Virus record (IMG/VR): IMGVR_UViG_3300046719_000042
Span: 1-36,159 of that record
Length of the DNA: 36,159 nucleotides
Strand: one strand, 5' to 3'
Source of the DNA: a virus
Lineage: Duplodnaviria > Caudoviricetes
Below the pieces are notes generated by a model that saw only the letters and a program-made list of their open reading frames with translations, made no database searches and was not told where the DNA came from. A program made the translations under genes and the position numbers. Shown here one piece after another: positions 12,994-34,600 of this stretch. Numbering within the stretch: position 1 is the first letter of the stretch; each line of letters starts with the position of its first letter.

Positions 12994-13401
12994 ATGCTCG
13001 TTTTGACAGCAGACCAGCAGGTCACGCTGACCGCCGTCTATACGGACAAGTACGGCAACACCGCCCCGATCGACGGCCAGCCGACCTGGGAAACCAGCGT
13101 CGACGGCATCGTCGTCGTCAAGCCCGCGGAAGACGCCATGTCGGCCGAGGTCATCACAGTCGGGCCGATCGGGCAGGTTCAGGTTCGCGCCATCGCAGAC
13201 GCCTTGCCCGGCGCTTCTGAAAAACTGATCATCGGTATCCTCGATATCGAAGTTGCCGGGGGCGAAGCCCGCATTGTTACGCTCAATGCTGGCACCGCGA
13301 TCTCCAAGGACGATGCGCCCGAAGAAGGTCCGACCGACGAGGATGTCGTCCCGCTCTCAGAGTCCGTGGAGCCTGCCGACCAGCCCTCAGAAACCCCCTG
13401 A
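12994..13401 (+). CDS. Ig-like domain virion protein
   Basis: QQVTLTAVYTDKYGN...PTWETS...GQVQVRAIAD pattern of bacterial Ig-like (Big) folds; acidic tail. Confidence 0.6.
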   Translation: MLVLTADQQVTLTAVYTDKYGNTAPIDGQPTWETSVDGIVVVKPAEDAMSAEVITVGPIGQVQVRAIADALPGASEKLIIGILDIEVAGGEARIVTLNAGTAISKDDAPEEGPTDEDVVPLSESVEPADQPSETP

Positions 13402-13601
13402 TGGTTGCCCGACGGACTTCGTCAGCCGGAAGCCGCTACGCAGCGGCGGCAGAGTCGAGCCGGGAAGCGAGAGGGAACCGCCTGCGCCGCGCCGGATGGC
13501 AGCCGGGGGAAGCCTATCCCCACGTGGACAGCCAGGCCGCAGACGTTGAGCCGGGCAGCCCTTCAAGCTTTTCTTCCGAGTTTTCCACGGAGTTCATCTG
13601 A
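13401..13601 (+). CDS. Small protein ending in an FSSEFSTEF motif (66 aa)
   Basis: TGATG overlaps at both ends; the C-terminal Phe-periodic motif recurs in the 31698 protein. Confidence 0.6.
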   Translation: MVARRTSSAGSRYAAAAESSREARGNRLRRAGWQPGEAYPHVDSQAADVEPGSPSSFSSEFSTEFI

Positions 13602-14017
13602 TGGCCATTGATACCATCGCCGGTCTTAAGGCCAAGATGCCGGTCGCAACGCCGGGCGGCACCACGGTCGCCGATATCTACGATCTGATCGACACGATGG
13701 AGGACCTGACCTCCCAGCAGGTTCTCGCCAAGACGGCGAGCTATACCGCAGCCTTGGCCGACAATCGCCGCCGCATCACCTTCAATTCCGCGACCGCCGT
13801 CACTCTGACCCTGCCCAACTCCGTGCCGGTCGGTTGGGAATGCGTCATCATGCAGCTCGGCGCCGGGGCCGTGACGGTAGCCGTGACCGGCGGAAATCTT
13901 CGCCACCTGAACACCCACGTCAAGACCGGCGGGCTCTATGCCCAGGCCTATCTGTTCGTCTACGCCAATCCCGGATCGGCACCGGAAGTCGCGTTCTCCG
14001 GGCAGACCTCGACATGA
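13601..14017 (+). CDS. Putative short fibre/adaptor protein, paralog A (138 aa)
   Basis: MAIDTIAGLKAKMP N-terminus and TLTLP..GW...IMQLGAGAVTV beta domain; same length as and clearly homologous to 14885..15301. Confidence 0.8.
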   Translation: MAIDTIAGLKAKMPVATPGGTTVADIYDLIDTMEDLTSQQVLAKTASYTAALADNRRRITFNSATAVTLTLPNSVPVGWECVIMQLGAGAVTVAVTGGNLRHLNTHVKTGGLYAQAYLFVYANPGSAPEVAFSGQTST

Positions 14018-14772
14018 TGCCGGGATGCGCGCTTATCGCCACCAACGATCCACCGGTCAATGTCTCTACCTTCAATACCGGCGGCGGAGACGGCGCCTAC
14101 AGCTTCGATCCGGATGCCAGGACCATTTCCGTCGCCTATGGCACGACGGCAACCAATATCCGGGGAAGCCATCCAACCATCATCGGAAATCGCTACCGCA
14201 TCTCCTGGACATACAGTGGAGCCACCGGGACCCAGGCCTATTTCGGCACGAGCGTCGGCAACATCCAGTATCGCCATGCGGTTGCCGGAGACAGTTTCTT
14301 CGACGTGACCGCCACCGCGCCGGTTCTTTACATCACATTCTCCCGCCCTTCCGCCGGGACGACCGTCGTCTCGAATATCGTCGCCCAGACCATTCAGGGC
14401 GTCACCTGGGTCGACACGGCGGCTGTCACACCCGCCGGATGGACGAATATCAGCGCCGGTGTCACCGTCGACGGGACCACCGGGGCGATCACGATCGCGG
14501 CGACCGGCACGAACATCTCCGCCCGCCAGCAGCTTACCACCGTCGCCGGGACCCTCTACCGGGTCAGATGGGTCAACACCGGCAATTCGACCCAGTGCGT
14601 CATCGGTAGCACGAGCGGCGGCAACCAGATGAAGACGGCGACTTTCAGCGACGCCATCGGAAGCCTAACCTACGAATTCCGGGCGACCAACACGACAACC
14701 TGGTTGCAATACCAGCGGTCCGCTGCCGGAACGGCAGTCGTATCCAACATATTCCTCCAGGTCACGGCTTGA
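14014..14772 (+). CDS. Putative lectin-like virion protein with two tandem beta-sandwich (CBM-like) repeats
   Basis: True start is ATG 14014 (ATGA overlap; MMPG). Two internal repeats: G.RYRISW..GTSVGN..ATAPVLYITFSRPSAGTTVVSNI and GTLYRVRW..GSTSGGN..ATNTTTWLQYQRSAAGTAVVSNI. Confidence 0.7.
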   Translation: MMPGCALIATNDPPVNVSTFNTGGGDGAYSFDPDARTISVAYGTTATNIRGSHPTIIGNRYRISWTYSGATGTQAYFGTSVGNIQYRHAVAGDSFFDVTATAPVLYITFSRPSAGTTVVSNIVAQTIQGVTWVDTAAVTPAGWTNISAGVTVDGTTGAITIAATGTNISARQQLTTVAGTLYRVRWVNTGNSTQCVIGSTSGGNQMKTATFSDAIGSLTYEFRATNTTTWLQYQRSAAGTAVVSNIFLQVTA

Positions 14773-14830
14773 CTTCTCCAAGTAAAAGACTCGTTTAAAA
14801 AGTATAATCACCTCTATTATTTAAAACTGT
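14773..14830 (+). promoter_or_regulatory. AT-rich intergenic patch, possible promoter
   Basis: Perfect TATAAT at 14803-14808 in an AT-rich stretch. The nearest TTGACT (14769) is 28 nt away, so there is no canonical -35. Confidence 0.3.
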
Positions 14831-14884
14831 CTCCGATCCATTTGTCGCGACTCGGACCCACCTTGCATCAGTCGGAGTCTCCTG

Positions 14885-15301
14885 ATGGCGATCGATACCA
14901 TTGCCGGGCTAAAGGCCAAGATGCCGCTGGCGACAGCCTCCGGCACCTCGGTCTCAGATATCCACGACTTGATAGATACCTTCGAGGATAGAACCACACA
15001 GTCCCTCATTCCGGTCACCGCCGCCTATAGCGTCTCCCTGCTGGACAACCGGCGCAAGGTCGTCGTCAGTGCCGCCGCCGCCGTGACCGTTACCCTCCCC
15101 TCCAACACTCCGGCCGGCTTCGAGCTGATGGTCGTCCAGACCGGCCTTGGCGCCGCCGTCGTCGCCGCCACCGGCGGCACCGTCCTGTCCAGGGACAACC
15201 ACACCCGCACCGCCGGACAGAACGCCGTCGCGTATCTGTTCTGCGTTTCCAACGCCGGGACCGCTCCCCAGGTCATCCTGACCGGCGATACCGCACCATG
15301 A
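14885..15301 (+). CDS. Putative short fibre/adaptor protein, paralog B (138 aa)
   Basis: First 14 aa identical to 13601..14017; GGAG RBS; ATGA overlap with its own downstream partner. Confidence 0.8.
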   Translation: MAIDTIAGLKAKMPLATASGTSVSDIHDLIDTFEDRTTQSLIPVTAAYSVSLLDNRRKVVVSAAAAVTVTLPSNTPAGFELMVVQTGLGAAVVAATGGTVLSRDNHTRTAGQNAVAYLFCVSNAGTAPQVILTGDTAP

Positions 15302-18132
15302 TGCTCGGAGGCGCCGTCGCCGCCCGCCGACGGCAAACCGCCGCGATCGTGCGGGTGGCGGCGGCCGAGCTTCCGGCCAACCGGGTCTACCAAAGATCCT
15401 CCGGCGTCTCCCTCGTTCCCCTGTCCGGCACCTATACCGGTGCGGCCAGCGCCGTATCCGCTCGCGTGATCGACGCCGTCACCAGTGTCGAGGCCAAGAC
15501 CTGGACGACCGTCGCCGCCGCTCCAACCGGCAATACCTGGTCGGGCACCCTCAGCGTGCCGCAGGGCGGCTGGTACAGGATCCAGTATCGCCTCGCGGCG
15601 GAGACGACCGCCATTTACACCGCCGTCAACCAGTTCGGCGTCGGTGATATCTGGATGTTCGCCGGGCAGTCCCAGCAAGCCCGCATGTCTACCCTCTCCA
15701 GTTTCCCACCCACCCCGGATACCCGAACCGTCTATTTCATCTCCGGGACCACCTGGACCGTCCCCGGCGTCACCGCCGGCACGAACGGCAACGGCGCCAT
15801 CACCTTTCTCAATCGCATGAGAGCCACCACGACCGTGCCGCAGGCCTGCATCCAGGTCAGTGTTGAGGGAACGGCGATCTCTGACTGGGAAGTGTCCGAC
15901 GCGGCCTACACCACGGCGATCTCCCGTCTGACCAGCGTCGGGGAAATCGCCGGAGTCTTGTGGCACCAGGGAACCTCAGACGTCGGCGTCACAACCAAGG
16001 CCAATTACAAAACCCGGCTGGCGGCGCTGAAATCCGGCTTGCAGTCCGCCGCGGCGATCCAGCGGTTCGCGGTCTATCCGCTGATGCACCAGACCACCGC
16101 CGCCGACACCGATGCCCAGATCCAGGAGATCAGGCAGGCGCACTACGAATATATCGCGGAAAATCCAGGAACCGTAAACCTGGGATGGCGTCCGGACATC
16201 TCGATGGCCGACGATGTCCATCAGACCGCCTCCGGGTCTGAACAGATCGGAACGACCTATGCCCACTCCCTGCTATTTTCCATGGGAGAGGTCAATACCA
16301 ACAGCCTTGGGCCGATCATCACTGGTGTCACGCGGGCAGGGCCGACCGTCACCCTGGCCGTCCAGCACCGCTCCGGCACTGCCCTCAAGATCAACGCGGG
16401 GACCCAGGCGACCGGCTTCCAGGTCTACCCGCGCGGCGCGCTCCAGAGCGACGCCACGGCCCTGGCGATCTCCAGCATTGTCCTGAACACCAACACGATC
16501 GACATCGCCCTGGCGGCTGATCCCTCAAGCGCTGTTGATGTCTATTATCAGTGGGGCCGGTTCGACCAGACATCCACCGTCTATGACAACACGACCTTCC
16601 AGGAACTCACGACCGGAAACGCGATGCAGCCGCTGATGCTGCCGGTCCAGAGCGCGGTCGAGGTCGGCGGCTTTGTCAATCCCGCCCTTACCTTCGACGG
16701 GGAGACCGGGCTCATCCGTTACCCCGCCACCACCGGCTGGAACTTCCCGGACGCGGACTGGACCGTCGGCGCCTGGGTTTCCATCAAGAACCCGGCCGGG
16801 ACCGCCTCCCAGTACATCATCTCGAGCGGATCCTACAACGGGCTGCAAACCTTCAATCTCCTTGTCTATGAAACATCGTCCTCGGGCAACGGCAGCGTCG
16901 TGGAATGCGCCGTCCGGGGCAGCGGAACCGGGTCCATCGTCACCGGACCTGTGCTCGCGTCTAACCTCGACACCGCCTGGAAGCTGTGGATCGTCGAACG
17001 CGTCAAGGCGACCGAGCTGATCAACATCTACATCCTGCCCATCAACGGTACCCGGACGCTTTACAAGTCTCTGAGCGTCGCCGGGCTGGGATCGATCACG
17101 CCCCCCGTCCTGACGGCACTTTCGACCAGGGCTCCCCCGATCGCGGCGAACGACCGCTGGCTCAACGGCAGCCTGCACAGCGTCTTCAAACTGGACGGCC
17201 TGCTGACCCAGGCGAACATGGAAGGTCTGGTCGGCGGCAATGACCTGATCACGAACCTCAACAAAAGTCCGGCCATCCTGACCAGGCTCAACACCCTGAC
17301 GACCCCGATTCCCAACAGCGGCACCGCTGCCAATGCCTCTGCGTCCGTCATCGGCGGCGTCACGACGACGGAAGGGCCGGTGTTCGAAGTTCCCTCCAAT
17401 GCCGTCCAGTTCAACGAAACCGCCATGGCCTACACGATGCCGGACAGTGCCAGCATGACCCTGCCGAGCGGCGACTGGACGCTCGGGTTCATGCTGGCGA
17501 TGGACGACAACGCCGGGACGGCGGCGCAGTATATCTGGAGCACCGGCGGCTACGGGGATCCACACTCGATCAACATCCTGTTCTGGGAGGCCAGCAGCAC
17601 TCTCACGCCTGAAAAGATAACCCTGTGCCTGGACGACAACGCGACGTCGATCGATCTCCAGGTCACCAGCACCAGCTCCGTCACGCCGACCGTCAACGGC
17701 TCGTACTATCTCTGGACTTTCGAAAAAGACAGTACCCTGGGAAAGATCAACTTCTACTACACGCCGATCAACGGTGTCCGCGTCCTGTTCCATTCCCACA
17801 CGCTGAGTGCTGCGGTCGGCGTGCTCAACGCGCCGGCTGCGGTCTCGACGATCGGTGGACGGTGGTCTGGGGCGGCTCCGGCGGGCCGCTACTTCGGCGG
17901 ACGCCTGCACCTGGCGTTTCAGATGAACGGCATCCTGAGCCAGTTCCAGACCCAGGACATCGCGCGGGGGAGGGACATGGTGACCCGGTTGAGCCTTGCG
18001 CCGACCTGGTACCATAAGTTCACCAGTGCCGCGACCACCCTCACAGACCTGAGCGGCAACGGCAATACCGCGACCCTGAGCGGTGGTCCGGCGGTCGTCG
18101 TCCCCGGCCCCAACTTCACGCCCAACGCCTAG
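15298..18132 (+). CDS. Virion-associated SGNH (SASA / sialate O-acetylesterase-like) esterase with two C-terminal LamG/ConA-like domains
   Basis: GVGDIWMFAGQSQ (block I, catalytic Ser), GVLWHQGTSD (block III), DDVH (DxxH). Two repeats: FPDADWTVG..AGTASQYI and LPSGDWTLG..AGTAAQYI. Confidence 0.8.
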   Translation: MMLGGAVAARRRQTAAIVRVAAAELPANRVYQRSSGVSLVPLSGTYTGAASAVSARVIDAVTSVEAKTWTTVAAAPTGNTWSGTLSVPQGGWYRIQYRLAAETTAIYTAVNQFGVGDIWMFAGQSQQARMSTLSSFPPTPDTRTVYFISGTTWTVPGVTAGTNGNGAITFLNRMRATTTVPQACIQVSVEGTAISDWEVSDAAYTTAISRLTSVGEIAGVLWHQGTSDVGVTTKANYKTRLAALKSGLQSAAAIQRFAVYPLMHQTTAADTDAQIQEIRQAHYEYIAENPGTVNLGWRPDISMADDVHQTASGSEQIGTTYAHSLLFSMGEVNTNSLGPIITGVTRAGPTVTLAVQHRSGTALKINAGTQATGFQVYPRGALQSDATALAISSIVLNTNTIDIALAADPSSAVDVYYQWGRFDQTSTVYDNTTFQELTTGNAMQPLMLPVQSAVEVGGFVNPALTFDGETGLIRYPATTGWNFPDADWTVGAWVSIKNPAGTASQYIISSGSYNGLQTFNLLVYETSSSGNGSVVECAVRGSGTGSIVTGPVLASNLDTAWKLWIVERVKATELINIYILPINGTRTLYKSLSVAGLGSITPPVLTALSTRAPPIAANDRWLNGSLHSVFKLDGLLTQANMEGLVGGNDLITNLNKSPAILTRLNTLTTPIPNSGTAANASASVIGGVTTTEGPVFEVPSNAVQFNETAMAYTMPDSASMTLPSGDWTLGFMLAMDDNAGTAAQYIWSTGGYGDPHSINILFWEASSTLTPEKITLCLDDNATSIDLQVTSTSSVTPTVNGSYYLWTFEKDSTLGKINFYYTPINGVRVLFHSHTLSAAVGVLNAPAAVSTIGGRWSGAAPAGRYFGGRLHLAFQMNGILSQFQTQDIARGRDMVTRLSLAPTWYHKFTSAATTLTDLSGNGNTATLSGGPAVVVPGPNFTPNA

Positions 18133-18150: not shown

Positions 18151-21100
18151 ATGCCAGACCAAACCCTCGACCAGCTTACCGAAAGCCCCAGCTCGGAAGA
18201 AACGGACAACCTCTACGCCACCCGGAATGGCAACTCGATCCGCATGAAGCTCGCGGTGGCGCTCTCGTCCAGGATCCCGGCAACCCGTCTCGTCGCCACC
18301 ATCAATGGCATCAAGGGCGGTGGCGACGGTACCGCCAACAGGACCCACGAACTCGACGTCGACGGCCTGGTAGAGGATCTGGCGCCCGATCTTACGTCCG
18401 ACTTCGTGCTCAGCCACGACACCTCGACCGGCCTGCCGCGCAAGGTCCGGATGACCCGGATCGCCGGAACCGGCACCGGAACCACAGCCAGCACGCCGGA
18501 TTTCGCGGTGATCGCCTCTCCCGGCCAGACCTCGGTCTCGGCGGTGGCCCCGTCTGAAACCGTCAATTTCGTCGCCGGCTCCAACATCCAGATTCAGACC
18601 GACCCGGCAACCAAGACGGTCCGCTGGCTCTTGACTGGTCTGGCCTCGAGCACGATCTCCATCAGTGCCGGCGCTGGGATGACGGGTGGCGGCAACCTGA
18701 CCGCAAACCGCAGCCTCGCCGTCGACATCGCCGGCCAGAGCGAGGACCTGACACCGGACCTTGGCGCGGACTATGTGATGACCCACGATGCGTCGAGCGG
18801 TCTGCTCCGGCGTGTCAAGCTTTCTCTTCTGTCGACCTCGTCCTTCACCCTGCTGACCGCGACCGCTACCCGGCTCGGCGGCATCCGGATCGGCAATGGC
18901 TTTACCTATGACGAAATCACCGGCATCCTGTCCGTCGTGCCGACCGGGACGTCCTACGTCCTGCCCGCCGCGACGGACACCGTTCGCGGCGGTGTCCGGG
19001 TCGGGACCGGCCTCACGGTTACCGGGGACATCCTGGCCAACGCCAACCCGACGCCCTACGTCCTGCCGGCTGCCGGGGTCAATGTCCTGGGTGGCATCAA
19101 GCAGGGGCCGGGCATCGAGATCGCGGCGGACGGCACCGCGTCTGTCAGCGGCGGCTCCAGCGGCACCGACAATTCCTTTCGTCCAGAGAGCTATGGCGCC
19201 ATCCGGGGCTCCGGCTTGACCCAGGCCCAGCGGGAATCCAACACGTCCGCGATCAACACCTGCTGGACCCAGGCATCGATCGTCAAGGGCCGCGTCGACA
19301 TGGGAGGCGGCACCTGGGAAATCTACGGAACCCTGAACCTGTCCAATACCACGACCTTGCGGATCGAAGGCGACTGGGCAACCATCCGACAGTTCCAAAG
19401 CTCCGTCTCGAACATCGCCATCACCAATGCTTCCCAGATCACGATGAGCGGCTTGCTTCTGGCCTACCAGAGCAACCAGACGACCGGCGCGGATCCGGTC
19501 ATCGGGGAAACCTACCTCGCGGCACTCCGCCTCAATGCCGTTTCAAACTGCCGCTTCAGCGACATCGACACGGTCAACGGCTGGGTCGGCATCGGGCTGT
19601 CGGGTGGCGCCGGTTCCTTCTCCAACACCTTCACCAACTGCCGGGTCAACATGTCCACCGGGCAGTCCTGGGGTCTCGTCCACAAGACCGGCAACGCCAA
19701 CAATTTCATCAACCTTCGGGTAACGGGCGGATTGTCGAGCCAAACGGTTTCCGGTGGCGTCCACGTTGGTTCCGCGGATCAGGTCACCTTCACGAACCTC
19801 GTGTGTGAAAGCCTCAGCGCGTTACGGCCGCTGTCCTTCTCCGGTGTCCGCGCCGCGACGATCACGGGCGCCGTGTTCAACCGGATCAGCCCCCGCGCCA
19901 CGGTCGGCTTCGGAACGCTGGTCAGCGCCTCCCTCGGCGCGGTGGTCCAGATAACCGGCGTCCATGTCGCCAACACGACGCTCTCGACGGCCAGCCAATC
20001 GATGGCGGACGCCGTGCTGTTCGCCGGTGAGGATGGCGCCTCGTTCCTGGTCGCCAGCATGACGCTGACCGGCACCATCAAGGACGGGGCCACGCGGTTT
20101 TCCCTGCTCGGGCATACCAGCAGCGCCGCCGCCAAGAACGTGAGCGGGACCTTCCAACAGATCCGGCTCGATACGACCCAGGCCAGTCCGCATCTCATGG
20201 ACGACCTTTCCATCGCCACGGTGGATCCGACAAGTGACTCCCTGGTCGGCCCGTTGCTGGCTTACAACAGCGTGCTGGGAGACGTCACCGGCTCCCTCTT
20301 CACGATCGGAGACGAGTCCCTGACGGTCTATCCCGGCGTCCAGGGCCGGCATGTCCAGTGCAATACCGCCCTGACCGCCGAGCGGACCGTCACCCTGTCC
20401 CGCTACATCGACCGGAGCTATGCCAGTGGCGCCTACACTGCCCCGAGGACCGTGCGGGGCGCCACCTTCCGAATTACCCGGACCGCCGTTTCGACCGGCT
20501 CTTCCCTGTTGACGGTGGCCAACCACAACGGTTCCTCGATCGTCGGCCTTGCGGCGAACCAGTCTGTCATCCTGGTCTTCGATGGCACGAACTTCGTGCA
20601 GGTTCCCGGTTCCCTCTCGACCGGCGGCGGTGGCGGCGCCACCGTCGTCTACGCCACCACGGCTGAGGCGATCACCGGAACCAGCACGACGACCGTCATG
20701 AACCCGGCCCGGACCAAGGAAGCGTTCAACGCGATGGCGACGGCCAACGAGATTACCGGCGTCGCCGGCCAGGTCCTAGGGTTCGACGCCTCCGGCAACG
20801 CCGCGGCGGTCAAGCTGACCCGAACAATCACGATCCCGCTGATCGGCGAATACATCCAGGTTACCACCGGCACCCAGGTACGCCGCATCATGATGCCGTT
20901 CTCGATGAAATTGACGGAAGTCCGCTTCTACATCGTCTCTGCCGGAACGACGGCGACGACGATGGACGTCAACGCAAATGGCGTGTCGATCCTCAACGCA
21001 CCCGTCTCCGTCGCCGCCAACACCCAGTCCACCACGTCCAGCAACTTCACGGCCCTGAGTACGGGAACGCTCGCCGTCAACACGCTGGTCGACTTCGACA

Positions 21101-21162
21101 TCGATGTCGCCGGAGCCGGAGCCAAGGGCGCTCAAATCACCTTGGTCGGGAACGAGATCTGA
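18151..21162 (+). CDS. Tail-spike/fibre protein with pectate-lyase-like parallel beta-helix (putative depolymerase)
   Basis: N-terminal fibre repeats (2x GGG..TANR...D.V..HD.S.G; 3x (LP)A(A)T...GG(I/V)). FRPESYGA..AINTCW..GGGTWEI beta-helix cap; Asn-rich coils (SNCRFSDI, SNTFTNCRV, NNFINLRV); YATTAEAITGT repeat; C-terminal beta-sandwich. Confidence 0.8.
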   Translation: MPDQTLDQLTESPSSEETDNLYATRNGNSIRMKLAVALSSRIPATRLVATINGIKGGGDGTANRTHELDVDGLVEDLAPDLTSDFVLSHDTSTGLPRKVRMTRIAGTGTGTTASTPDFAVIASPGQTSVSAVAPSETVNFVAGSNIQIQTDPATKTVRWLLTGLASSTISISAGAGMTGGGNLTANRSLAVDIAGQSEDLTPDLGADYVMTHDASSGLLRRVKLSLLSTSSFTLLTATATRLGGIRIGNGFTYDEITGILSVVPTGTSYVLPAATDTVRGGVRVGTGLTVTGDILANANPTPYVLPAAGVNVLGGIKQGPGIEIAADGTASVSGGSSGTDNSFRPESYGAIRGSGLTQAQRESNTSAINTCWTQASIVKGRVDMGGGTWEIYGTLNLSNTTTLRIEGDWATIRQFQSSVSNIAITNASQITMSGLLLAYQSNQTTGADPVIGETYLAALRLNAVSNCRFSDIDTVNGWVGIGLSGGAGSFSNTFTNCRVNMSTGQSWGLVHKTGNANNFINLRVTGGLSSQTVSGGVHVGSADQVTFTNLVCESLSALRPLSFSGVRAATITGAVFNRISPRATVGFGTLVSASLGAVVQITGVHVANTTLSTASQSMADAVLFAGEDGASFLVASMTLTGTIKDGATRFSLLGHTSSAAAKNVSGTFQQIRLDTTQASPHLMDDLSIATVDPTSDSLVGPLLAYNSVLGDVTGSLFTIGDESLTVYPGVQGRHVQCNTALTAERTVTLSRYIDRSYASGAYTAPRTVRGATFRITRTAVSTGSSLLTVANHNGSSIVGLAANQSVILVFDGTNFVQVPGSLSTGGGGGATVVYATTAEAITGTSTTTVMNPARTKEAFNAMATANEITGVAGQVLGFDASGNAAAVKLTRTITIPLIGEYIQVTTGTQVRRIMMPFSMKLTEVRFYIVSAGTTATTMDVNANGVSILNAPVSVAANTQSTTSSNFTALSTGTLAVNTLVDFDIDVAGAGAKGAQITLVGNEI

Positions 21163-25387: not shown

Positions 25388-25861
25388 ATGGCCCTGCTCC
25401 TCCAGAACGGAAGCTACCTGCAACTGCAAACCGGCGGTTCCGCCTCGGGCAAGATACTGCTGAAAGGAGATCCTGGAGCCGTGTTCCATGCCCTAGCCCC
25501 GCCATGGCGGACAGCCAACTTCGGGGACGGCACCACCATCGTCTCCTGGACCTCCGCCCTGGATCCATCAGAACGCAAGATCTACACCGTCAACGCTGCC
25601 ACAGAACTCAACGGCATCAACGACACGATCAGTTCCGTCAACGTCGAACTCTCCGGCCTGGCGGCTCTGGTCGGCCTCAGGATCTACGGTGTTACCAACG
25701 ACCTGACCCAGGTCAGCATCTGGTTCGAGATCAACCCGGCGGACCGGGCTCGGCCGGGTTGGGCATCTCCCGGAGAGACCCATCTTGTCACGGTCACCAT
25801 CACATCGATGGGTGGTCACATCTTCCAGAGAGACATCAGCCTCAGGATTCTCCAGCTATAG
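25388..25861 (+). CDS. Putative fibre-anchor/adaptor protein
   Basis: AAGGAG RBS; N-terminal LLLQNGSYLQLQTGG..ILL motif; the domain APPWRT..LDPSERKIYT..FQRDISLRI is repeated at the C-terminus of 26695..29997. Confidence 0.7.
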   Translation: MALLLQNGSYLQLQTGGSASGKILLKGDPGAVFHALAPPWRTANFGDGTTIVSWTSALDPSERKIYTVNAATELNGINDTISSVNVELSGLAALVGLRIYGVTNDLTQVSIWFEINPADRARPGWASPGETHLVTVTITSMGGHIFQRDISLRILQL

Positions 25862-26253: not shown

Positions 26254-26667
26254 ATGGCCCTAAAGATCACGACCGGCACCGCGGATTCGATGCTCACCAC
26301 CCTGGCGACATCGCTCAACTCCGGCCTTCTTCGGATTTATTCCGGGACAGAACCGGCCACCGCCGACACGGCCTTGTCCGGCAATACCCTTCTCGCCCAG
26401 CTCACATTCGGGGCGACCGCCTTCGCCGCCGCGACGGCTTCGGGAGCGGACCGCATCATTACCGCCAATGCGATTACACAGGATAGCAGCGCAGATGCAG
26501 ATGGCACCGCGACTTTCTTCCGCGCCACCAACACCGCCGGGACAACCACGATATACCAGGGAACGGTCGGCACCAGCGGCCAGCAGCTCAACCTGACGGC
26601 AACCAACATCGTTGCCGGCGGCGTCGTCAGCGTCTCTTCCCTATCGATCACCCTGCCGACGGCCTAA
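26254..26667 (+). CDS. Small conserved virion fibre subunit (candidate 'bead' protein, 137 aa)
   Basis: LRIYSGTEPATADTA...LLAQL...DSSADADGTATFFR...QGTVG...L.L.ATNIVAG..VSVSSLSIT; GGAG RBS; directly precedes a 24-aa-repeat protein. Confidence 0.7.
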   Translation: MALKITTGTADSMLTTLATSLNSGLLRIYSGTEPATADTALSGNTLLAQLTFGATAFAAATASGADRIITANAITQDSSADADGTATFFRATNTAGTTTIYQGTVGTSGQQLNLTATNIVAGGVVSVSSLSITLPTA

Positions 26668-26694: not shown

Positions 26695-29600
26695 ATGACG
26701 ACCTACTACGTCAAGAACGGTGGCAACGACAGCGCCGACGGTCTGTCGGATGCCACTGCGTGGGCATCCCTTGGCAAAGCCGCCGGAGCCAATATCGGGG
26801 CCGGGGACTCCGTGCTGTTCAAGCGCGGCAGTCGTTGGAGAGAGGAGTTTGTCTGTTACAAGGGCGGGAGCAGTGTGTCCTCCCGCCTTACCTTCGGAGC
26901 CTATGGCACCGGCACAGCGCCGATCATCGACGGCTCAGACATCATCACCGGCTGGACGATGGAGTCTCCATCCGGCGGTTCATCCGGAGAGGACTTTACC
27001 GACACCAGCGGTTCCCGGCCCATTGCCTGGTGGGGATTTTCGGAAACCACCGGCACGCGGGCCAGCACGGCGGGAACCGGGAACGGACTCGTCCCGAGCA
27101 CAAATTCGCCGACGCGCGGGACTGGCCCCCACGGTCAGTTCTCCGCGGAGTTCGTCAAGGCGTCCTCCCAGCAGTTCACTCTGGCGGAAACCTCCATGAC
27201 GGCCGATTTTCCCGGTCGGTCAACTGTGCCGAACGCATCGGTCACGGTCGGGGGCTGGGTCCGGGTCGACGCTGAGACGGCCGGCGACGGCGGGATCCTT
27301 TCCAAGGACACCAACTACCAGATCATGATCGAGGGCAGCGTTGTCCAGTTCCGGGTATTCGGGGCGAACAACGCCGGGGCGGCGGCCTCCGGGGATAGCA
27401 CGACCTACAGCGCGGGAACCTGGAGGCATTATGTCGGGCGCTGGACGGCGGGTACCGGCGAGACCGTCCTGTTCGTCAACGGCGTCAAGAAGACCCCCGC
27501 GACGATTACCACCAGGAATACCTCGACTGGGGCCTTCCAAGTCGGCAACGCCACCTTCAAGTCTAATTTCGACGGCGCCCTGACCGAACTGTTCGTTTTC
27601 AATACGGCCCTGACCGATGCCCAGATCGCCTCCATCTATAACAGCGGGCTGAATGGCTCCAGAACGCAGGTCGGACCGACCTACTACTACAAGCCCTTTA
27701 CATCGAAACCCGGCGGCGTCTTCAGCGACGGCAATCCGCTCAGGCTCGTTGACCTCAAGGCGGACATGGGCCTCGGCAACGAATGGTGGGATCCGGTCAA
27801 CTTCAGGCAGTATGTCCGTCTTGCCGGTGATGACGCCCCTTCCGGCCACACCATGGAAATCGGGATAAGAACCTATCCCATGCGTATCCAGGGGACGGAT
27901 CACTGGACGATCGAGGATATCTGGGTCAGAGGAGCCTACAAGGCAAATATTTTCGCAGACACGAACAACGACGGCATCGTCCGCCGATGCATACTCACCC
28001 ACGCTTCCGAAAACGGCGTCCACATCTATACCCACACGAACCTCAGCACACAGGGGTTCGAAGTCAGCAACAACGTGTGCTATGCGAACGGCGCCTGTGG
28101 GATCACGGTTGCCGGACAAAACGCGATATCCATGGCTGGCATTCGCATCCGCAACAATGAAACATACGGCAACTGCTGGCAGCCGAGACGAAAAGAAAAT
28201 GACGAGTTTTCCTTTACCGGTGGCATCCGGCCGATCGGCAGGGAGATAAACGACTGCATCATCGAGGATAACTACGTTCACGACGAGGGTATAGATGGCA
28301 ACTATTCCCACGGCTGCGGTATATGGTTCGATACCGTAGGATTGAACTGTATTGCCAGGCGCAATCGTGTTGAGAGAACGTCATCCTGGGGCATCCAGAT
28401 CGAGGACTGTAATTCCGTTAAAGCACACTCAAACGTTGTCGTTGGAACCGTTTATTACCCAGGCATAGCCATCATCAGGAACTGTGACAATAATCTCGTT
28501 TATAATAATACACTGGTTAACTGCCAAGGGGGGTTCAACTTCTCCAATGGTGGCGGCGGATCTCACTTCGCCGGGAACCAGATCTTCAACAACATCGTCA
28601 GCCAAACGACAGGCCGTGTCATCCTGGCGGATACCGGGGTCAATACCGCCGCGAATGTTTCCTTCAACAAAAACCTCTTTGGACCGGCCAGAACCAACTT
28701 CATCTACTGGAACGACGACTACTCCAGCTATGCGGCCTGGGAGCAGGCCCTGGATGGCGCGAGCAATTCGATCCAAGTAAACCCGACCTTTGTCAACGCC
28801 GCCGCTGGGGATTACCATCTTGCGGTTGGATCGTCCGGCCGGAGCGCCGGTGCCGCCTTGCCGGCGGGGACGCTGGATTTCGTCAAGACGGAGTTCTCCG
28901 GCACCCCCAGCGTCGGGGCGCTGGAGCTGTCGTCCGCGACTACGATCCTTGGAACCTCTGCGGTCCGTCTCTCCGCCCTGAGAGGGGCCGGCGTTGGAAC
29001 CCGCGTTCTTCCCGCCCTGGTCGCCACGTCCGCCGTGCGCTTGATCTCCCTGACCGGAACCGGTTTCGGCACCCGGACGATACCGGCGAAAGATGCCACC
29101 TCCGCCGTGCGCTTGACCGCCCTGCGCGGAACTGCGACGGGGACCGCGAGCCTGCCGACCTTCAGGATTGGCGTCTCCGCCGTTTTCCTGACCGCGTTGC
29201 GCGGCACCGCCACCGGTGCCCGGACGATCCCGGCGCGGACCGGGACCTCCGCCTCCAGATGGCCGAACCTTTCCACGCTGGCCCTCGGGACGACCGGCAC
29301 GACGTCCGCCAGGATCGGTGCCTCTGCCGTGCGCCTGACCGCCCTGCGCGGAACCGCCATTGGCGCCAGGGCCATTCCGACGCGCACCGGTACCTCGGCC
29401 GTCGTCTGGCCCAAGCTGTCCGTCTCCGCTCTCGGGACAGCCGGAAACCCAACCTCCAGGATCGGCGTTTCTATCGTTCGCTTGGTGGCGCTGCGTGGCC
29501 TCGGGAACGGCACCAGGACGGTCCCCAACAGGATTGGCACCAGCGCCATCAGGTGGCTGAAGTTCGTCCATGCCGCACTCGGACTGCGGACGGTTCCGGG

Positions 29601-29997
29601 CGGCTTCGACATTGTTCCCCATATCAATGCTCCGGCCTGGAGAACCGCTGACTTTGGCGACGGCAGCGCGCGGGTGTCCTGGCGTTCCGCCCTCGATCCG
29701 GGAGAGAAGAAAGCCTACACCATCAACTGTGGCACGGAACTTGCCGGGGAAAACCGGATCGAGATCGTCAACGTTGCCCTGTCCGGCCTGGCCGTGCTGG
29801 CGGGGCTCCGCATCCGGGCGATGAGCAACGACTTGACCAACGTCACGCTTTGGCTGGAGGTCAATGCTACGGACAGAACGCGGCCCAACTGGAACGGAGA
29901 TGGAGAAACCCACACCCTGACTTGCACCATCGACGTCACGGACGGCCAGCGCTTCGAGCGGGACGTGGCCATCCAGATCAAGCAACTCGGCCAGTGA
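26695..29997 (+). CDS. Modular fibre protein: beta-helix with inserted LamG domain, 9 x 24-aa repeats, C-terminal anchor domain
   Basis: TYYVKNGGNDSADGLS..AW..GDSVLFKRG..FGAYGTG.AP.IDG (right-handed beta-helix start); LamG 26989-27657; Asn ladder; PTFVNAAAGDYHL..GALE end cap; repeats 28945-29601; anchor 29629-29994. Confidence 0.85.
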   Translation: MTTYYVKNGGNDSADGLSDATAWASLGKAAGANIGAGDSVLFKRGSRWREEFVCYKGGSSVSSRLTFGAYGTGTAPIIDGSDIITGWTMESPSGGSSGEDFTDTSGSRPIAWWGFSETTGTRASTAGTGNGLVPSTNSPTRGTGPHGQFSAEFVKASSQQFTLAETSMTADFPGRSTVPNASVTVGGWVRVDAETAGDGGILSKDTNYQIMIEGSVVQFRVFGANNAGAAASGDSTTYSAGTWRHYVGRWTAGTGETVLFVNGVKKTPATITTRNTSTGAFQVGNATFKSNFDGALTELFVFNTALTDAQIASIYNSGLNGSRTQVGPTYYYKPFTSKPGGVFSDGNPLRLVDLKADMGLGNEWWDPVNFRQYVRLAGDDAPSGHTMEIGIRTYPMRIQGTDHWTIEDIWVRGAYKANIFADTNNDGIVRRCILTHASENGVHIYTHTNLSTQGFEVSNNVCYANGACGITVAGQNAISMAGIRIRNNETYGNCWQPRRKENDEFSFTGGIRPIGREINDCIIEDNYVHDEGIDGNYSHGCGIWFDTVGLNCIARRNRVERTSSWGIQIEDCNSVKAHSNVVVGTVYYPGIAIIRNCDNNLVYNNTLVNCQGGFNFSNGGGGSHFAGNQIFNNIVSQTTGRVILADTGVNTAANVSFNKNLFGPARTNFIYWNDDYSSYAAWEQALDGASNSIQVNPTFVNAAAGDYHLAVGSSGRSAGAALPAGTLDFVKTEFSGTPSVGALELSSATTILGTSAVRLSALRGAGVGTRVLPALVATSAVRLISLTGTGFGTRTIPAKDATSAVRLTALRGTATGTASLPTFRIGVSAVFLTALRGTATGARTIPARTGTSASRWPNLSTLALGTTGTTSARIGASAVRLTALRGTAIGARAIPTRTGTSAVVWPKLSVSALGTAGNPTSRIGVSIVRLVALRGLGNGTRTVPNRIGTSAIRWLKFVHAALGLRTVPGGFDIVPHINAPAWRTADFGDGSARVSWRSALDPGEKKAYTINCGTELAGENRIEIVNVALSGLAVLAGLRIRAMSNDLTNVTLWLEVNATDRTRPNWNGDGETHTLTCTIDVTDGQRFERDVAIQIKQLGQ
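28945..29601 (+). repeat. 9 tandem 24-25-aa coding repeats (R.GTSAVRLTALRGTA.G.RT.P)
   Basis: 657 nt = 219 aa = six 24-aa and three 25-aa units, counted by hand. Confidence 0.9.
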
Positions 29998-30039: not shown

Positions 30040-30324
30040 ATGGCCGTTCTCTATGACGTAATAGCGTTGTTTGAAATGCTGTATCCAGATATTCCTGTGC
30101 AGTATACTGTTCCATCACCAACGTGGGAGCAAGTAGATGTAATGGCAATGGAGCAAATTCCTCAATGGCAGGGAGTCAGAGCTATACTGGATACTATGGA
30201 ATTCAAAATTACGGCTGGTGTTAAAACCATCTACCCTCCAACACAGCCGTGTGACGAAGAGGTTATAACTAATGCTGCACGGGGGGTTAATGTGACTGTT
30301 GGTGACTTTTCCAATCTTCCTTAA
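30040..30324 (+). CDS. Hypothetical protein, paralog of the next gene, low GC
   Basis: DV..LF..LYPDI...M.QIPQW.GV.A.L.T.E.KI..GV...YP..QP shared with 30346..30600. Confidence 0.75.
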   Translation: MAVLYDVIALFEMLYPDIPVQYTVPSPTWEQVDVMAMEQIPQWQGVRAILDTMEFKITAGVKTIYPPTQPCDEEVITNAARGVNVTVGDFSNLP

Positions 30325-30345
30325 CTAATCAGGAAAGATAAGACA

Positions 30346-30600
30346 ATGGCAAATACCATGGATGTCGCCACCCTGTTCGCCCTGCTGTACCCGGACATTG
30401 AGATTGTCTACGCCAATCCGACGACCATCAGTGAATCGACCATGTCCCAGATTCCTCAGTGGAGAGGCGTGCAAGCACTGCTCTTGACGGTCGAACAGAA
30501 AATTTTGCAGGGAGTCAGGGTGAATTATCCCTTGGCCCAGCCGCTCAACGAGGGTGGTGTCCTTCAAACCCTGATAGAGGTTCCTGCCGTCACGCCGTAA
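30346..30600 (+). CDS. Hypothetical protein, paralog of the previous gene
   Basis: Same LYPDI/QIPQW/YP.QP motifs; AGGA upstream. Confidence 0.75.
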   Translation: MANTMDVATLFALLYPDIEIVYANPTTISESTMSQIPQWRGVQALLLTVEQKILQGVRVNYPLAQPLNEGGVLQTLIEVPAVTP

Positions 30601-30627
30601 CAGGGAATCCGGAAGAGGCTTGGCCCC

Positions 30628-31602
30628 ATGGTAAATACAAAGATCTCCGCGCTGCCCGTCGCGACCACCCCTGTCGCCGGAACAGCCAAAATCCCCATCG
30701 TCCAGGGCGGGGCCACCAAAGTCACGACGGCGGCAGATCTCCGGAACACGCCCGAGCCGTTTGTGATGACCGCGCAGGCGACCGGCAGCGTAACCGCGTC
30801 TGAGACGAATACGATCAAGATGTTCGCCAGATCCTATTCCGGGCGCATCATGCCCGAGTTTGTCAGCGAAACCGGAGTTGATTGCTTCCTTCAGCCATCC
30901 TTGATCAACAACAACCTCATGCTGTGGCAGCCGTCCGTGGGAACCGTCGCCGGCACGATCCTGGGGAACACATTCACGTCCGTGGGGACGGCGAGTCATC
31001 CGGTTCTTGCTTCAACCAATATACAAACGGCGATGCGTCGCACCAACTGGGTCACTACGGCGACAACGGCTGCTACCACCTGCGGGATACGCGGAAACGT
31101 CCCACAGATTTGGCGCGGCAATGCCGCGAACCTCGGCGGATTTCATGCATTTTTTCGCTTCAGCCAGAATACCAATCTGTTGGGACACCAGACATTCGTC
31201 GGACTGGCGGTGTCCACGGCGGTTCTGGGCGGGGACCCATCGGCGCTGACCGACATGATCGGTATCGGCTATGACGGAGCGGATGCCATCGTGAACGGCT
31301 GGCAGCTCATGCGGAACGACGCCACGGGTGCCGCAACGAAGGTATCCCTCGGATCCTCTGCTCCCAGAGACACCAGCACAGTCCTTGATCTCTCCCTCTA
31401 CGCCCCGGCCAACGCATCGTTCATCGGGGTCCGGGTCTACAATCAGAGCACCCAGACGGTCGTTCTGGACAACGTCGCCTACACCACCGACCTGCCGACC
31501 AATACGGCGTTCTTGAACTTCCACGTCCAGACCCGCGTCGGCACCGCTGGAGCGAACCAGAATCTTCAACTGAATAAAATCTATATCGATTCCGATGTCT
31601 GA
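30628..31602 (+). CDS. Putative fibre/spike protein with KISALP-type N-terminal anchor and lectin-like body
   Basis: TKISALPVAT...IPIVQGGATK N-terminus typical of phage fibre attachment domains; beta-rich C-terminal domain ending TDLPT...IYIDSD. Confidence 0.7.
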   Translation: MVNTKISALPVATTPVAGTAKIPIVQGGATKVTTAADLRNTPEPFVMTAQATGSVTASETNTIKMFARSYSGRIMPEFVSETGVDCFLQPSLINNNLMLWQPSVGTVAGTILGNTFTSVGTASHPVLASTNIQTAMRRTNWVTTATTAATTCGIRGNVPQIWRGNAANLGGFHAFFRFSQNTNLLGHQTFVGLAVSTAVLGGDPSALTDMIGIGYDGADAIVNGWQLMRNDATGAATKVSLGSSAPRDTSTVLDLSLYAPANASFIGVRVYNQSTQTVVLDNVAYTTDLPTNTAFLNFHVQTRVGTAGANQNLQLNKIYIDSDV

Positions 31603-31697
31603 CCGTCCCCATCCGGGAGCCGCGCCCATGGCCGATGTCCATATCCTAGAGATGCGGCACCCCCTCTGCCGGAGATCCGCGACCGGGACCGTCTTCC

Positions 31698-34600
31698 ATG
31701 GGTGAAATCCTGATCCTGATGGAGAGCGGGGATACCCTCCTCGCCGAAGACGATTCACTTTTACAGCAAGAGCCGCCGCCTCCAGCGGAAAACTTTACGG
31801 ATGGCACGGGGGTAAAGCCGGTCGCGTGGTGGTATTTCAGCGAGACTTCCGGCAACAGAGCCAGTTCTGCCGGATCCAGCGATGTCCTGGTCCCCAGCGC
31901 CAGCGCACCGACTCGCGGTACCGGGCCGCACGACTATTACTCAGCCGAGTTCGTCAAGGCATCGTCCCAGCAGTTCAATCTTGCCGATGCCAGTATGTCG
32001 TCGACCTTCCCAGGCAAGAACGGCCTGACGAACGGCGACTTCACGATGGGCGGCTGGATGCGCGTCGACAGCGAAACCAGCGGTGACGGCGGCATTTGGT
32101 CGAAGGACACGAACTTTCAGTTCGTTGTCGAAGGCCCGGTGATCTTCCGGATTTTCTCCAGCGGAAACGGTGCCACTGGCTATTCCTACGATGACGCGGG
32201 GATGTCCTACGGGACGTGGAAACACTATGTCGGCCGCTGGACGGCGGCAACCGGTGCCGTCGAGCTTTTTGTCAATGGCGTCAAGCAGTCGAGGGTGGAT
32301 ACCGTCTCCACCCGCAATACCTGGACTACCGATATGTTCGTCGGTAACGCAACCTTCAAAAGTAATTTTGACGGTGCGCTTGCCGAGCTTTTCGTCTTCG
32401 ACAGCGCTCTCACGGACGATCAGATTCTATCCATTTACACGAATGGACTGGACGCGCGGCGAGCGGTTGTTGAAATCAGCGGCACCAGCGCTGTCATCTC
32501 TCCAAAGCTTACCGGTACCGCGTCCGGTTCAAGGACCATTCCGGACCGAACCGGCACAAGCGCCGTCACATCGCCTAAGCTTACCGGCACCGCAACCGCT
32601 TCAAGGACGATCCCAAGTAGGACCGGCACCAGCGCTGTCATCTCTCCAAAGCTTACCGGTACCGCGACGGCTTCAAGGACAATTCCAGACAGGGCAGGCA
32701 CCAGCGCCGTCACATCGCCAAAGCTTATTGGAGCCGCGTCCGGTTCAAGGACCATCCCGGACAGGACCGGCACCAGCGCCGTTATATCGCCGAAGCTTAC
32801 CGGCACCGCAACCGCTTCAAGGACGATCCCAGACAGGATAGGTACCAGCGCCGTATCCCTATTCCCTGTCCTCCACGTCGCCAACGTCCAACACTATGCT
32901 GGAAACGAGTTCTCCTACGAATTCTCCAGTGAGTTCACCGTTCAGACCATCGACGCACTAAGCGGCACGTCGGTCTCAACTCTTCCAAAAGCCACCACGA
33001 CCGCGACCGGCGGCAGAAGCATCCCGGACAGGATCGCCAGCGGTGCCGTCACATGGACAAAGCTGACCACGGCTTCCAGCGCCAGCCGGACCATCCCGGA
33101 CAGGATCGCAATCTCAGCCGTGACTTGGCCGAAGCTTACCGGCGTGGCGGCAGGTTCCAGAACCATCCCAAACAGGACAGCCACCTCCAGCGGAATACTG
33201 CCCAAGGCGACGGCGGCTGCGGCCGGAGCCAGGACGATCCCAAATCGGACAGGGACATCCTCTGCGACCTTGGTTGCCCTTTCCCAGACGGCGACGGGAA
33301 GTCGTCTGGCCCCGACGGTTATCGGCATCAGCGCATCCACGGTGCCAAAGGCAACGGGCAGCGGTGCCGGTTCCCGGACATCGCCGGCCAGGACTGGCAC
33401 CAGCGCTGTAACGCTGCCGTTGCTTGGTCACAGCGCTCTGGGCGGGAGATCCCTGCCCGGCAACACAGGCGCCTCGGCTATCATCCTGCCAATCCTGACA
33501 GGCACCGCAGCAGGCATCAGAACAGTACCGGCACGCACAGGCGGAAGCGCCGTCGTCCTGTCTGCACTGACCGGCACCTCTGCCGGGACCAGGACGATCC
33601 CCCAGAGAACCGGCTCCGGCACCGCCACATGGCCCAAACTGACGACGGTAACCGTCGCCTCCCGGACCATCCCGGTGCGTTCCGGCACCATCTCCGTGAC
33701 GTTGCCGAAAGCGACGAGCACCGCCACCGCGTTCCGGACCCTGCCCGACCGAACCGGCGGCAGTGCTGTCAGGTTGTCGTCCCTGGCAGGGGCCGGGACC
33801 GGCTCACGGACCGTCCCCGCCCTCTCCGGGAACAGCGCCGTGACGTGGGTTAAGCTGGCCGGTCTTGGCTCAGGAGGGAGATCTATCCCGACCAGATCCG
33901 GCACAAGCATTTCGATCCTGCGCTTTCCACAGACAGCGGCAGCCGGCTCCCGCACTCCTCCGATGCTGACCGCTACGTCGCTTGGGGCGCTGCCATTTCC
34001 CACTCACGGCGCCGCCGGTCAAAGAAGCCCGCCGGAGCGCATCGCCAGTTCAGGCGTCACGCTGCCTATGCCGACATCGTCGGCGACCGGGGCCAGGCAG
34101 CCTCCCGAGGCCATTGCGGTCTCCGCCGTCACGCTTCCCAAGCCGACCGTGGTCGCGATCGGCTCACGACAGCCCCCAGCAGCCGTCGTCACCAGTACCG
34201 TGACGCTGCCCACCATGACAGCGGCCGGAGCGGGCTCCCGCACGATCCCCATCCGAACCGGAAGTTCAAGCTCCACGGTCTCCAAACTGAGCCACTCCGC
34301 CACTGGACAGCGCGGTATCGGTGGACTCGATGGCCTCAGCAGCACCCGGTTCCCGAAACCGACCGGCACCGGCACGGGGTCCAGGACGATCCCGGCGCGG
34401 ACGGGAACGTCGGCCACCATCCTGCCGTTCCCGCTGGTCTCCTCCCTGGGCATCCGGATCGCCCCGGCAGCCGTCGGCACTTCCGCCGTCACGCTGCCCA
34501 GGTTGGGCCATGCGGCAGCCGGAGAGGCATTGCTGCCCGGCATCTACGCGGACAGTTCCGTCACCCTGCCGACCCTCACCGGAAGTGCGGCCGGGACCCG

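What the first reader, a model, noticed from the sequence alone, without database searches (positions are those of the whole stretch)
13401..32936. Apparent peptide docking code for a branched appendage tree
Seen: short, three-fold periodic peptides occur in numbers matching candidate partner domains. (a) FSSEFSTEF (13569-13595) and EFSYEFSSEF (32907-32936, inserted inside the long rope) vs two MAIDTIAGLKAKMP proteins, the first of which is translationally coupled to the motif-bearing gene. (b) LLLQNGSYLQLQTGG..ILL (25388) and ILMESGDTLLAEDDSLLQQE (31698) vs two fibre N-terminal anchors (TKISALP in 30628; TLDQLTE..DNLYATRNG in 18151). (c) YFKSPAGRYLRSPGGKAVK at the start of 21164, right behind the spike gene. 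Inference: monomeric pseudo-threefold peptides nucleate trimeric fibres, so ropes carry side branches and branches carry enzymes, forming a plug-and-play receptor-binding tree.
Basis: inference. Interest (0 to 1): 0.82.

Follow-up and report, generated by a model that had tools for sequence, protein, structure and literature searches.

The report
Peptide pegs that dock phage fibres
This uncultured phage carries short three-part peptides, inserted in several head and neck proteins, that turn up next to the same two kinds of fibre-base domain in many unrelated phages, so they likely act as reusable pegs that snap side fibres and sugar-cutting enzymes onto the particle, some of them onto long bead-on-a-rope fibres.

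Summary
The count-matching argument fails: there are three FxxEF motifs (a third at 21365), and peg:anchor counts in relatives run from 1:4 to 5:3. The pairing survives better tests.

(b) LLxEDG pegs go with KISxL/TLDQL fibre anchors: 25 of 52 motif clusters in unrelated viruses against 0 of 18 controls. 16 of 19 C-terminal pegs are directly followed by such a gene.

(a) FxxEF pegs move between host proteins in relatives and precede MAID-like anchors in unrelated phages, including cultured Ruegeria phage Tedan. In a tail-tip family the peg is present in 3 of 3 phages with the anchor and 0 of 4 without. The motif-first count is weaker (2-3 of 18).

(c) The SPxG peptide has no support outside this clade.

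No complex model could be run, so binding is inferred. The principle is known (Pa223, SU10). I did not find these two codes in print; the scan noted similar codes on other DNA.

The parts
13401..13601 (+). 66-aa peg carrier: basic N-terminal half, Pro-rich linker, C-terminal peg A
   Evidence: Orthologues end in the same peg; one carries two FxxEF pegs (L016); one adds an FD-x4-T triplet together with a T4 gp9/10-N fibre gene (L005)
13569..13595 (+). Peg A1, FSSEFSTEF (F-x3-F-x3-F)
13601..14017 (+). MAID-1: helical anchor A (aa 1-37) plus knob with the T4 gp9/gp10 XD1 fold (aa 39-137)
   Evidence: AF2 pLDDT 90.6; Z 15.1 to the Pa223 spike knob and Z 9.2 to CBA120 TSP4 80-180
14014..14772 (+). 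Cargo 1 (252 aa, no Pfam family), coupled to MAID-1 (-4), short hydrophobic N-terminal peptide
14885..15301 (+). MAID-2, anchor A plus knob (52% identical to MAID-1)
15298..18132 (+). Cargo 2: SASA-family acetyl-esterase protein coupled to MAID-2; carries an inserted peg A in relatives L005 and L010
   Evidence: PF03629 E 1.9e-16
18151..21162 (+). Spike or fibre with anchor B (MPDQTLDQL...) and a C-terminal domain
21173..21229 (+). Peptide C (YFKSPAGR YLRSPGGK AVK) at the start of gene 21164
   Evidence: Conserved in 7 of 7 clade loci behind the 18151 orthologue; no independent support
21365..21391 (+).
   Evidence: pLDDT <50 at loop 40-54 between strands; cadherin matches E about 1e-3; phenylalanines conserved in 6 orthologues
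25388..25861 (+). Collar-like (Gp77) protein with N-terminal peg B1 (LLLQNGSYLQLQTGG..ILL, 25394-25462)
   Evidence: PF23148 E 5.5e-5, 24 bits, below the 27-bit cut-off
26254..26667 (+). Bead protein, homologue of chain-fibre dimers
   Evidence: phmmer: 44NX_B (147 aa, the length of A1002 gp40) E 9.6e-13; 9RKV_A (phage 7-7-1) E 1.6e-7
26695..29997 (+). LamG + beta-helix + about 9 rope repeats (28927-29589) + C-terminal Gp77-like domain
30628..31602 (+). Fibre with anchor B (MVNTKISALP...)
31698..35126 (+). Long rope protein: peg B2 (31713-31772), LamG, about 33 repeats of 24 aa (32460-34961), inserted peg A2 (32907-32936)

Best explanation
The head-to-neck region of this tailed phage encodes a kit of appendage proteins that are likely joined by short peptide pegs, each with three repeated hydrophobic units, predicted to plug into the base of a fibre trimer. 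Two codes are used side by side: F-x3-F-x3-F pegs for helical anchor A (the MAID proteins) and LLx(E/Q)xG triplets for anchor B (KISxL/TLDQL fibres).

Shown by sequence: the pegs sit at termini, in loops or between repeats, change host protein between relatives, and travel with their anchor type across unrelated phages.

Inferred: the anchors trimerise and bind one peg each. The MAID knob would hold the enzyme or lectin encoded by the next, coupled gene through that protein's N-terminal peptide. The 24-residue repeats would be ropes coated by dimers of 26254, rooted (26695) on a Gp77-like collar. Pegs outnumber anchor genes here, so one anchor protein would serve several sites: a shared code, not one-to-one wiring. 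My odds: pair (b) 0.85, pair (a) 0.75, pair (c) 0.35, rope and bead 0.85, knob-to-cargo link 0.55.
For: Pair (b), motif first: a profile seeded only from this clade and one A1 hit finds anchor B in 25 of 52 LLxEDG gene clusters and 0 of 18 FSxEF gene clusters (Fisher p 1.0e-4). After iteration it is 34 of 52 against 0 of 18. Of 19 clusters with a C-terminal LLxEDG peg, 16 have anchor B in the very next gene and 0 have anchor A. G002 lacks both 30628 and the second peg B.

Pair (a), mobility: the peg is inserted in SASA-type proteins, rope proteins, a cadherin loop, or added at C-termini, differing between close relatives.

Pair (a), adjacency outside the clade: L163 and L186/L194 have C-terminal FSSEFSSEF followed by an anchor-A gene, and L097 has an anchor-A gene just before the peg gene. 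Ruegeria phage Tedan has a 39-aa ORF ending FSSAFGAGF directly before an anchor-A gene. These four anchors score above all 200 shuffles on a MAID-only profile.

Pair (a), gain and loss: the tail-tip J protein ends in the peg in Bas72, Eta and 3/49, which all carry the anchor-A 'neck protein', and in Ent1 (anchor not read in that record). It lacks the peg in DS8, phi5013-M1 and two Vibrio phages, where no anchor A was found.

Modularity: the same knob carries anchor A, anchor B or a gp9-type anchor in different proteins.

Precedent: three Trp of one loop plug a fibre trimer in Pa223 and SU10. Rope and bead.
Against: Motif first, anchor A was found in only 2 of 18 FSxEF gene clusters with the seed profile (p 0.063 against 0 of 52) and 3 of 18 after iteration (p 0.015). 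Only 2 of 9 C-terminal cases passed the threshold. G010 has a peg A and no anchor A in the 40 of 94 kb read. G004 has anchor B and no peg B in 60 kb, and G008 has four anchors A and one peg in 40 kb.

The Guernseyvirinae anchor is only weakly linked to MAID (2-6 of 200 shuffles reach its score; hhalign E 0.0026). The J-protein positives are related to each other, so they count as one or two events, and two of the four negatives were read over 24 kb only. Clusters at 60% identity do not remove all relatedness.

The MAID knob matches XD1, which the CBA120 paper calls a spacer rather than a binding module. Peptide C has no support outside the clade. Gp77 matches are below the Pfam cut-off.
Confidence: 0.7

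Rival explanations
1. One reading: each peg has one dedicated partner, the numbers match, and all three motifs, including SPxG, work as three-fold pegs.
For: Peg B and anchor B counts match in the window and in G002, G003, G005 and G006. Peptide C is conserved behind the 18151 orthologue in 7 of 7 clade loci.
Against: There are three pegs A for two MAID genes here, and 5:3, 4:2 or 1:4 in relatives. Of 120 pattern matches for peptide C, 7 were in frame at a gene start and only 1, a clade member, followed a 18151-type domain.
Confidence: 0.1
2. The pegs do dock something, but not these anchors: for example the XD1 knob, the neighbouring tailspike, the capsid or an assembly chaperone. Adjacency would then reflect shared module inheritance.
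For: No binding data exist. In Guernseyvirinae the peg lies 12 kb from the anchor gene and next to the tailspike gene. 15 of 18 FSxEF clusters gave no anchor-A hit.
Against: The Vibrio 1.064.O phage keeps a similar spike start but has neither peg nor anchor. The anchor-A genes after pegs in L163, L194 and Tedan do not appear to carry the MAID knob, so the shared part is the anchor. No cross-pairing was seen.
Confidence: 0.12
3. The peptides are low-complexity or structural motifs with no docking role (short tandem duplications, acidic metal-binding loops) that hitchhike in fibre modules.
For: 75 of 93 clusters matching the FSxEF DNA patterns were not in genes, or were tandem runs, so the pattern arises easily by chance.
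Against: The phenylalanines stay invariant while the spacers vary. The pegs are inserted in different proteins in different relatives. Some tiny ORFs consist of little but the peg (Tedan, 39 aa; several 44-70 aa ORFs). The identity of the next gene is predicted by the peg type.
Confidence: 0.08

Closest known systems
Tri-tryptophan fibre-dock loops: Pa223 gp59 FAL with fibre gp60 (bioRxiv 10.1101/2025.06.11.659172) and SU10 nozzle loop with gp16 (PMC9509320); passages read
   Same: One chain presents three hydrophobic residues in pseudo-three-fold arrangement to the base of a fibre trimer (3:1 mismatch).
   Different: There the loop is a fixed part of the tail hub, with Trp 7-10 residues apart. 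Here the pegs have Phe 4 apart or LLxExG units 7-8 apart, move between host proteins, occur several times per genome, and two codes coexist. No sequence relationship was shown.
Chain-like rope-and-dimer fibres: A1002 gp39/gp40/gp41 (PMC13730344, section 11 read), Bas63 collar/whisker (PMC12609058, section 9 read), GP4 fibre I (known to me only through these two papers)
   Same: 26254 is homologous to the A1002 dimer protein. There is a repeat rope, and in 26695 the rope is an N-terminal extension of a collar-like domain, as in Bas63.
   Different: Solved ropes hold 2, 5 or 11 dimers and no side branch is described in the sections read. Here there are about 9 and about 33 repeats, the ropes end in LamG or beta-helix domains, and a peg is inserted in mid-rope.
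Branched RBP systems: CBA120 TSP1-4 (PMC8825819, passages read) and KP32-type branching domain plus conserved peptide (PMC13352976, abstract read)
   Same: A T4 gp9/gp10-like domain is present, and a second protein is proposed to dock through a short N-terminal peptide.
   Different: The MAID knob matches XD1 (a spacer in that paper), not the XD2/XD3 branching domains. The pegs studied here sit on the scaffold and bind the fibre base, the reverse of the KP32 arrangement.
A-1(L) bead-chain neck fibre gp82-gp81-gp80 (PMC10966104, passages read)
   Same: Separately made proteins are chained into a neck appendage with a carbohydrate-binding tip.
   Different: It is a linear trimer-on-trimer chain with no monomeric peg described, and no homology was tested here.

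Membership tests
Pseudo-three-fold fibre-dock loop (Pa223 FAL / SU10 type) | Three regularly spaced hydrophobic residues on one chain | tested here: met
   Three invariant Phe in peg A; three LLx(E/Q)xG-like units in peg B
Pseudo-three-fold fibre-dock loop (Pa223 FAL / SU10 type) | Peptide is exposed, not part of a fold core | tested here: met
   C-terminal (13569), insert between repeats (32907), low-pLDDT loop (21365), N-terminal (25394, 31713)
Pseudo-three-fold fibre-dock loop (Pa223 FAL / SU10 type) | Partner is a homotrimer | tested here: inconclusive
   The MAID knob matches domains of trimeric proteins (Pa223 spike, TSP4, T4 gp9), but no oligomer was modelled and anchor B was not folded
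Pseudo-three-fold fibre-dock loop (Pa223 FAL / SU10 type) | Peptide inserts at the base of the trimer, 1:3 | not tested
   The complex prediction queue was full and no job ran
GP4/A1002/Bas63 rope-and-dimer fibre | Bead protein homologous to GP4 gp80 / A1002 gp40 | tested here: met
   E 9.6e-13 to 44NX_B over the whole length
GP4/A1002/Bas63 rope-and-dimer fibre | Extended repeat rope that completes the bead's beta-sheet | tested here: inconclusive
   24-aa repeats are present and co-occur with 26254 homologues in relatives; no sequence match of the rope to solved chains; binding not modelled
GP4/A1002/Bas63 rope-and-dimer fibre | Ig-like collar or adaptor (gp77 type) roots the rope | tested here: inconclusive
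   PF23148 at E 5.5e-5 and 1.6e-3, both below the cut-off; 31698 has no such domain
CBA120/KP32 branched RBP system | T4 gp10-like XD2/XD3 branching domain on a primary RBP | tested here: inconclusive
   The MAID knob aligns to XD1 (TSP4 80-180). The other appendage proteins were not folded
CBA120/KP32 branched RBP system | Secondary RBP starts with a conserved docking peptide | tested here: inconclusive
   Of 19 distinct knob-ending genes, 13 are followed by a gene coupled at -1/-4 that starts with a short hydrophobic, often RRR-ending peptide on varied cargo. Most are from one clade

The most novel reading that the evidence does not exclude
Tailed phages share a small set of mobile, mutually exclusive peptide-and-socket codes: F-x3-F-x3-F for anchor A, LLxEDG triplets for KISxL anchors, and an FD triplet for T4 gp9-type anchors. 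Inserting a 9-25 residue peg anywhere on a virion protein, even in mid-rope, adds a new branch. This phage then builds a multi-level tree on a mixed collar with a rope of about 33 beads, and the unexplained 'neck protein' of some 500 Guernseyvirinae-like records is in fact a tail-tip trimer held by the last residues of J.
Probability: 0.4. Interest if true: 0.8.

Novelty: new variant of a known kind. Interest (0 to 1): 0.6.

Why it matters
If true, the wiring of phage appendages could be read from sequence, and many 'hypothetical' fibre starts and tiny ORFs would get a function. About 480 stored IMG/VR stretches match just one strict LLxEDG pattern. It explains how receptor-binding parts are gained or moved with very small changes. 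It is directly testable in cultured phages (E. coli phage Bas72, Ruegeria phage Tedan). It also gives a lead on Jersey-type tail tips, where a 2026 study left the attachment of side parts unresolved (PMC13243795, passages read).

Tried and rejected

Count matching was rejected. Peptide C outside the clade: nothing (7 of 120 matches in frame, 1 with the partner, a clade member).

My first idea that the MAID knob is the gp10 branching domain was dropped: it aligns to XD1.

No solved relative was found by sequence for anchor A, anchor B, the ropes, 18151, 21164, 25388 or the Guernseyvirinae neck protein. The fold search did not test MAID residues 1-37. There is no curated Pfam family for either anchor, and Atlas neighbours of anchor B are unnamed. 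No MAID relative was found among 50,697 annotated phages.

FSxEF DNA scans were mostly chance matches (75 of 93 clusters). Three loci of the window's own clade and all loci under 3 kb were left out before counting. The FD-triplet regex missed the L005 case (period 7), so that pair rests on one observation by eye. An anchor-first search across bacterial genomes could not be set up.

Literature: searches found no paper naming these motifs. The library lacks most subscription journals, including the GP4 paper, and bioRxiv supplements are closed.
Full report
Setting. The window is a 36-kb viral contig. It holds a terminase-like first gene with a weak intein match, portal, head morphogenesis, scaffold and major head genes, then about 24 kb of accessory genes, then the head-tail adaptor. 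Relatives continue with genes I read as tail tube and tape measure (recognised by eye), so this is probably a long-tailed phage whose appendage kit lies between head and neck genes.

Observation. Every peptide quoted is present at the stated place. Loose F-x3-F-x3-F occurs 5 times in 33 genes against 0.51 expected. A third strict motif at 21365 was missed. AlphaFold places it in a disordered loop of a cadherin-like domain, with the phenylalanines conserved in six orthologues. Peg A to anchor A counts are 3:2 here and 5:3, 4:2, 4:4, 2:2, 2:1, 1:1 and 1:4 in relatives. Number matching is therefore not an argument.

The MAID proteins. 43 homologues were found. The model (pLDDT 90.6) has two N-terminal helices (anchor A) and a beta knob matching the Pa223 capsid-spike knob (Z 15.1), CBA120 TSP4 residues 80-180 and T4 gp9/gp10. 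That is the XD1 domain, described as a spacer. Among the 150 listed representative hits, this knob is found behind anchor A (10 by a loose pattern, one doubtful), anchor B (5) or a gp9-type start (2), so the anchors are interchangeable modules. Two such proteins (P0046, P0051) end in a peg A of their own. Of 19 distinct knob-ending genes in my loci, 13 are followed by a gene overlapping by 1 or 4 bases that starts with a short hydrophobic peptide on varied cargo. I infer, without a test, that this is how the enzymes attach.

Pair (b). A DNA pattern for LLxEDGxxLLxE gave 120 loci; 80 were 3 kb or longer and fell into 52 gene clusters and 8 others. An anchor-B profile seeded only from this clade and one A1 hit found the anchor in 25 of 52, against 0 of 18 FSxEF gene clusters (p 1.0e-4). 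After three blind iterations it was 34 of 52 against 0 of 18. Of 19 clusters with the peg at a C-terminus, 16 had anchor B in the next gene and none had anchor A. The two window anchors (TKISALP, TLDQLTE) fall under one profile: unrelated genes read MPDQKLSQL and MADTKISAL. G002 lacks both the 30628 orthologue and the second peg B. G004 has an anchor B with no peg B found.

Pair (a). Within the clade the peg moves: small ORF, SASA-type proteins, ropes, the cadherin loop, new C-termini. In G004 a C-terminal FTNQFTNHF precedes an anchor-A fibre at a second locus. In L005 the small ORF has gained an FD triplet and is followed by a newly placed T4 gp9/10-N fibre (one case).

Motif-first scans for pair (a) gave 163 loci and were dominated by chance. 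Anchor A was found in 2 of 18 gene clusters with the seed profile, 3 of 18 after iteration, 0 of 75 non-gene clusters and 0 of 52 LLxEDG clusters. Further next genes look anchor-like by eye (L044 family, L124) but did not pass or were not counted.

Anchor-first searches in cultured phages gave weak tblastn hits (E 0.02-10). One was Ruegeria phage Tedan, where a 39-aa ORF ending in the peg precedes the anchor gene. The rest were mostly the Guernseyvirinae 'neck protein' (phrog_3614), with no peg within 3 kb in 5 of 5 loci. The whole Bas72 genome has one strict peg, at the C-terminus of the tail-tip J protein. J also ends in the peg in Eta, 3/49 and Ent1. It does not in DS8 and phi5013-M1 (whole genomes) or two Vibrio phages (24 kb each), none of which gave an anchor-A hit. 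The anchor profile used there contained the Bas72 and 3/49 sequences. The positives are related to each other, and this anchor's link to MAID is moderate: 2-6 of 200 shuffles, hhalign E 0.0026 to MAID and 8.8e-5 to the bridging anchors.

Pair (c). The 8-residue repeat is kept behind the 18151 orthologue in all 7 loci found, all from one clade. A scan for it elsewhere gave no independent case. It stays open.

Ropes. 31698 has about 33 repeats of 24 residues, with peg A2 in a 41-residue insert, and 26695 has about 9. Gene 26254 is homologous to the A1002 chain-fibre dimer and to a chain of the 7-7-1 tail-fibre entry, probably the garland protein (my inference from its size). In A1002, GP4 and Bas63 such dimers wrap a rope by sheet augmentation, and in Bas63 the rope is the N-terminal extension of an Ig-like collar. 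26695 has that order (cargo, rope, Gp77-like domain), and 25388 is a Gp77-like domain with peg B instead of a rope (matches below cut-off).

Most likely mechanism (all joints inferred). A collar ring containing 25388 and 26695 sits at the neck. 25388 offers peg B to an anchor-B spike (18151 or 30628). 26695 and 31698 are ropes beaded with 26254 dimers; how 31698 is rooted is unknown. 31698 offers peg B at its tip and peg A in mid-rope. The small ORF and 21164 offer further pegs A. MAID trimers bind pegs A and carry the 14014 protein or the 15298 esterase. A role in binding or stripping host surface sugars follows from the SASA, LamG and beta-helix families, not from a test.

Known and new. The 3:1 pseudo-symmetric plug (Pa223, SU10), rope-and-dimer fibres (GP4, A1002, Bas63) and peptide-docked branched RBPs (KP32, CBA120) are published. 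I found no paper naming these two motifs or their mobility (limited library). Earlier AI notes in this scan describe like codes on other DNA; they gave me the Pa223, SU10 and A-1(L) papers, which I read, and are not evidence.

Noticed in passing
L459:19625-22192 and L459:9275-9889 (Bas72, PQ850621.1): The tail-tip J protein ends in F-x3-F-x3-F, and the gene after the adaptor ('neck protein', phrog_3614; 538 records match, some only in part) starts with an anchor-A-like segment. This predicts a tail-tip location for it.
   Followed up: partly
L005:8470-8565 and L005:8620-9951: The small peg ORF carries an extra FD-x4-T triplet and is followed by a T4 gp9/10-N fibre with a GDSL-like domain: a candidate third code.
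   Followed up: partly
window:14-1495: The terminase-like first gene contains an intein-like insert (PF14890, E 9e-4, below cut-off).
   Followed up: no
window:4676-6384 and 8102-9202: Two TylF-like methyltransferase genes (one scanned: PF05711, E 7.6e-13) sit between portal and head morphogenesis genes. A 366-aa gene with no family hit, which looks to me like a polysaccharide deacetylase, precedes the scaffold. Relatives carry other cargo at these places.
   Followed up: no
window:30040-30600: Two paralogous small genes (94 and 84 aa, sharing LFxxLYPDI...QIPQWxGVxAxL) lie just before fibre 30628. They are also present in G005 and were not seen in the G002 gene list, which also lacks 30628.
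   Followed up: no
window:35146-35499: A 117-aa protein (phrog_1084) follows the long rope gene in the window and in most relatives read; it may root or cap the rope.
   Followed up: no
L072:7812-9621: An anchor-like gene and a following small gene with FNREFNCEF both start with apparent signal peptides.
   Followed up: no
P0046, P0051: These MAID-type proteins end in their own peg A and could chain head to tail.
   Followed up: no
window:11610-13401: Two low-complexity genes and an Ig-like 135-aa gene after the major head gene are conserved in the clade; no family was found.
   Followed up: no
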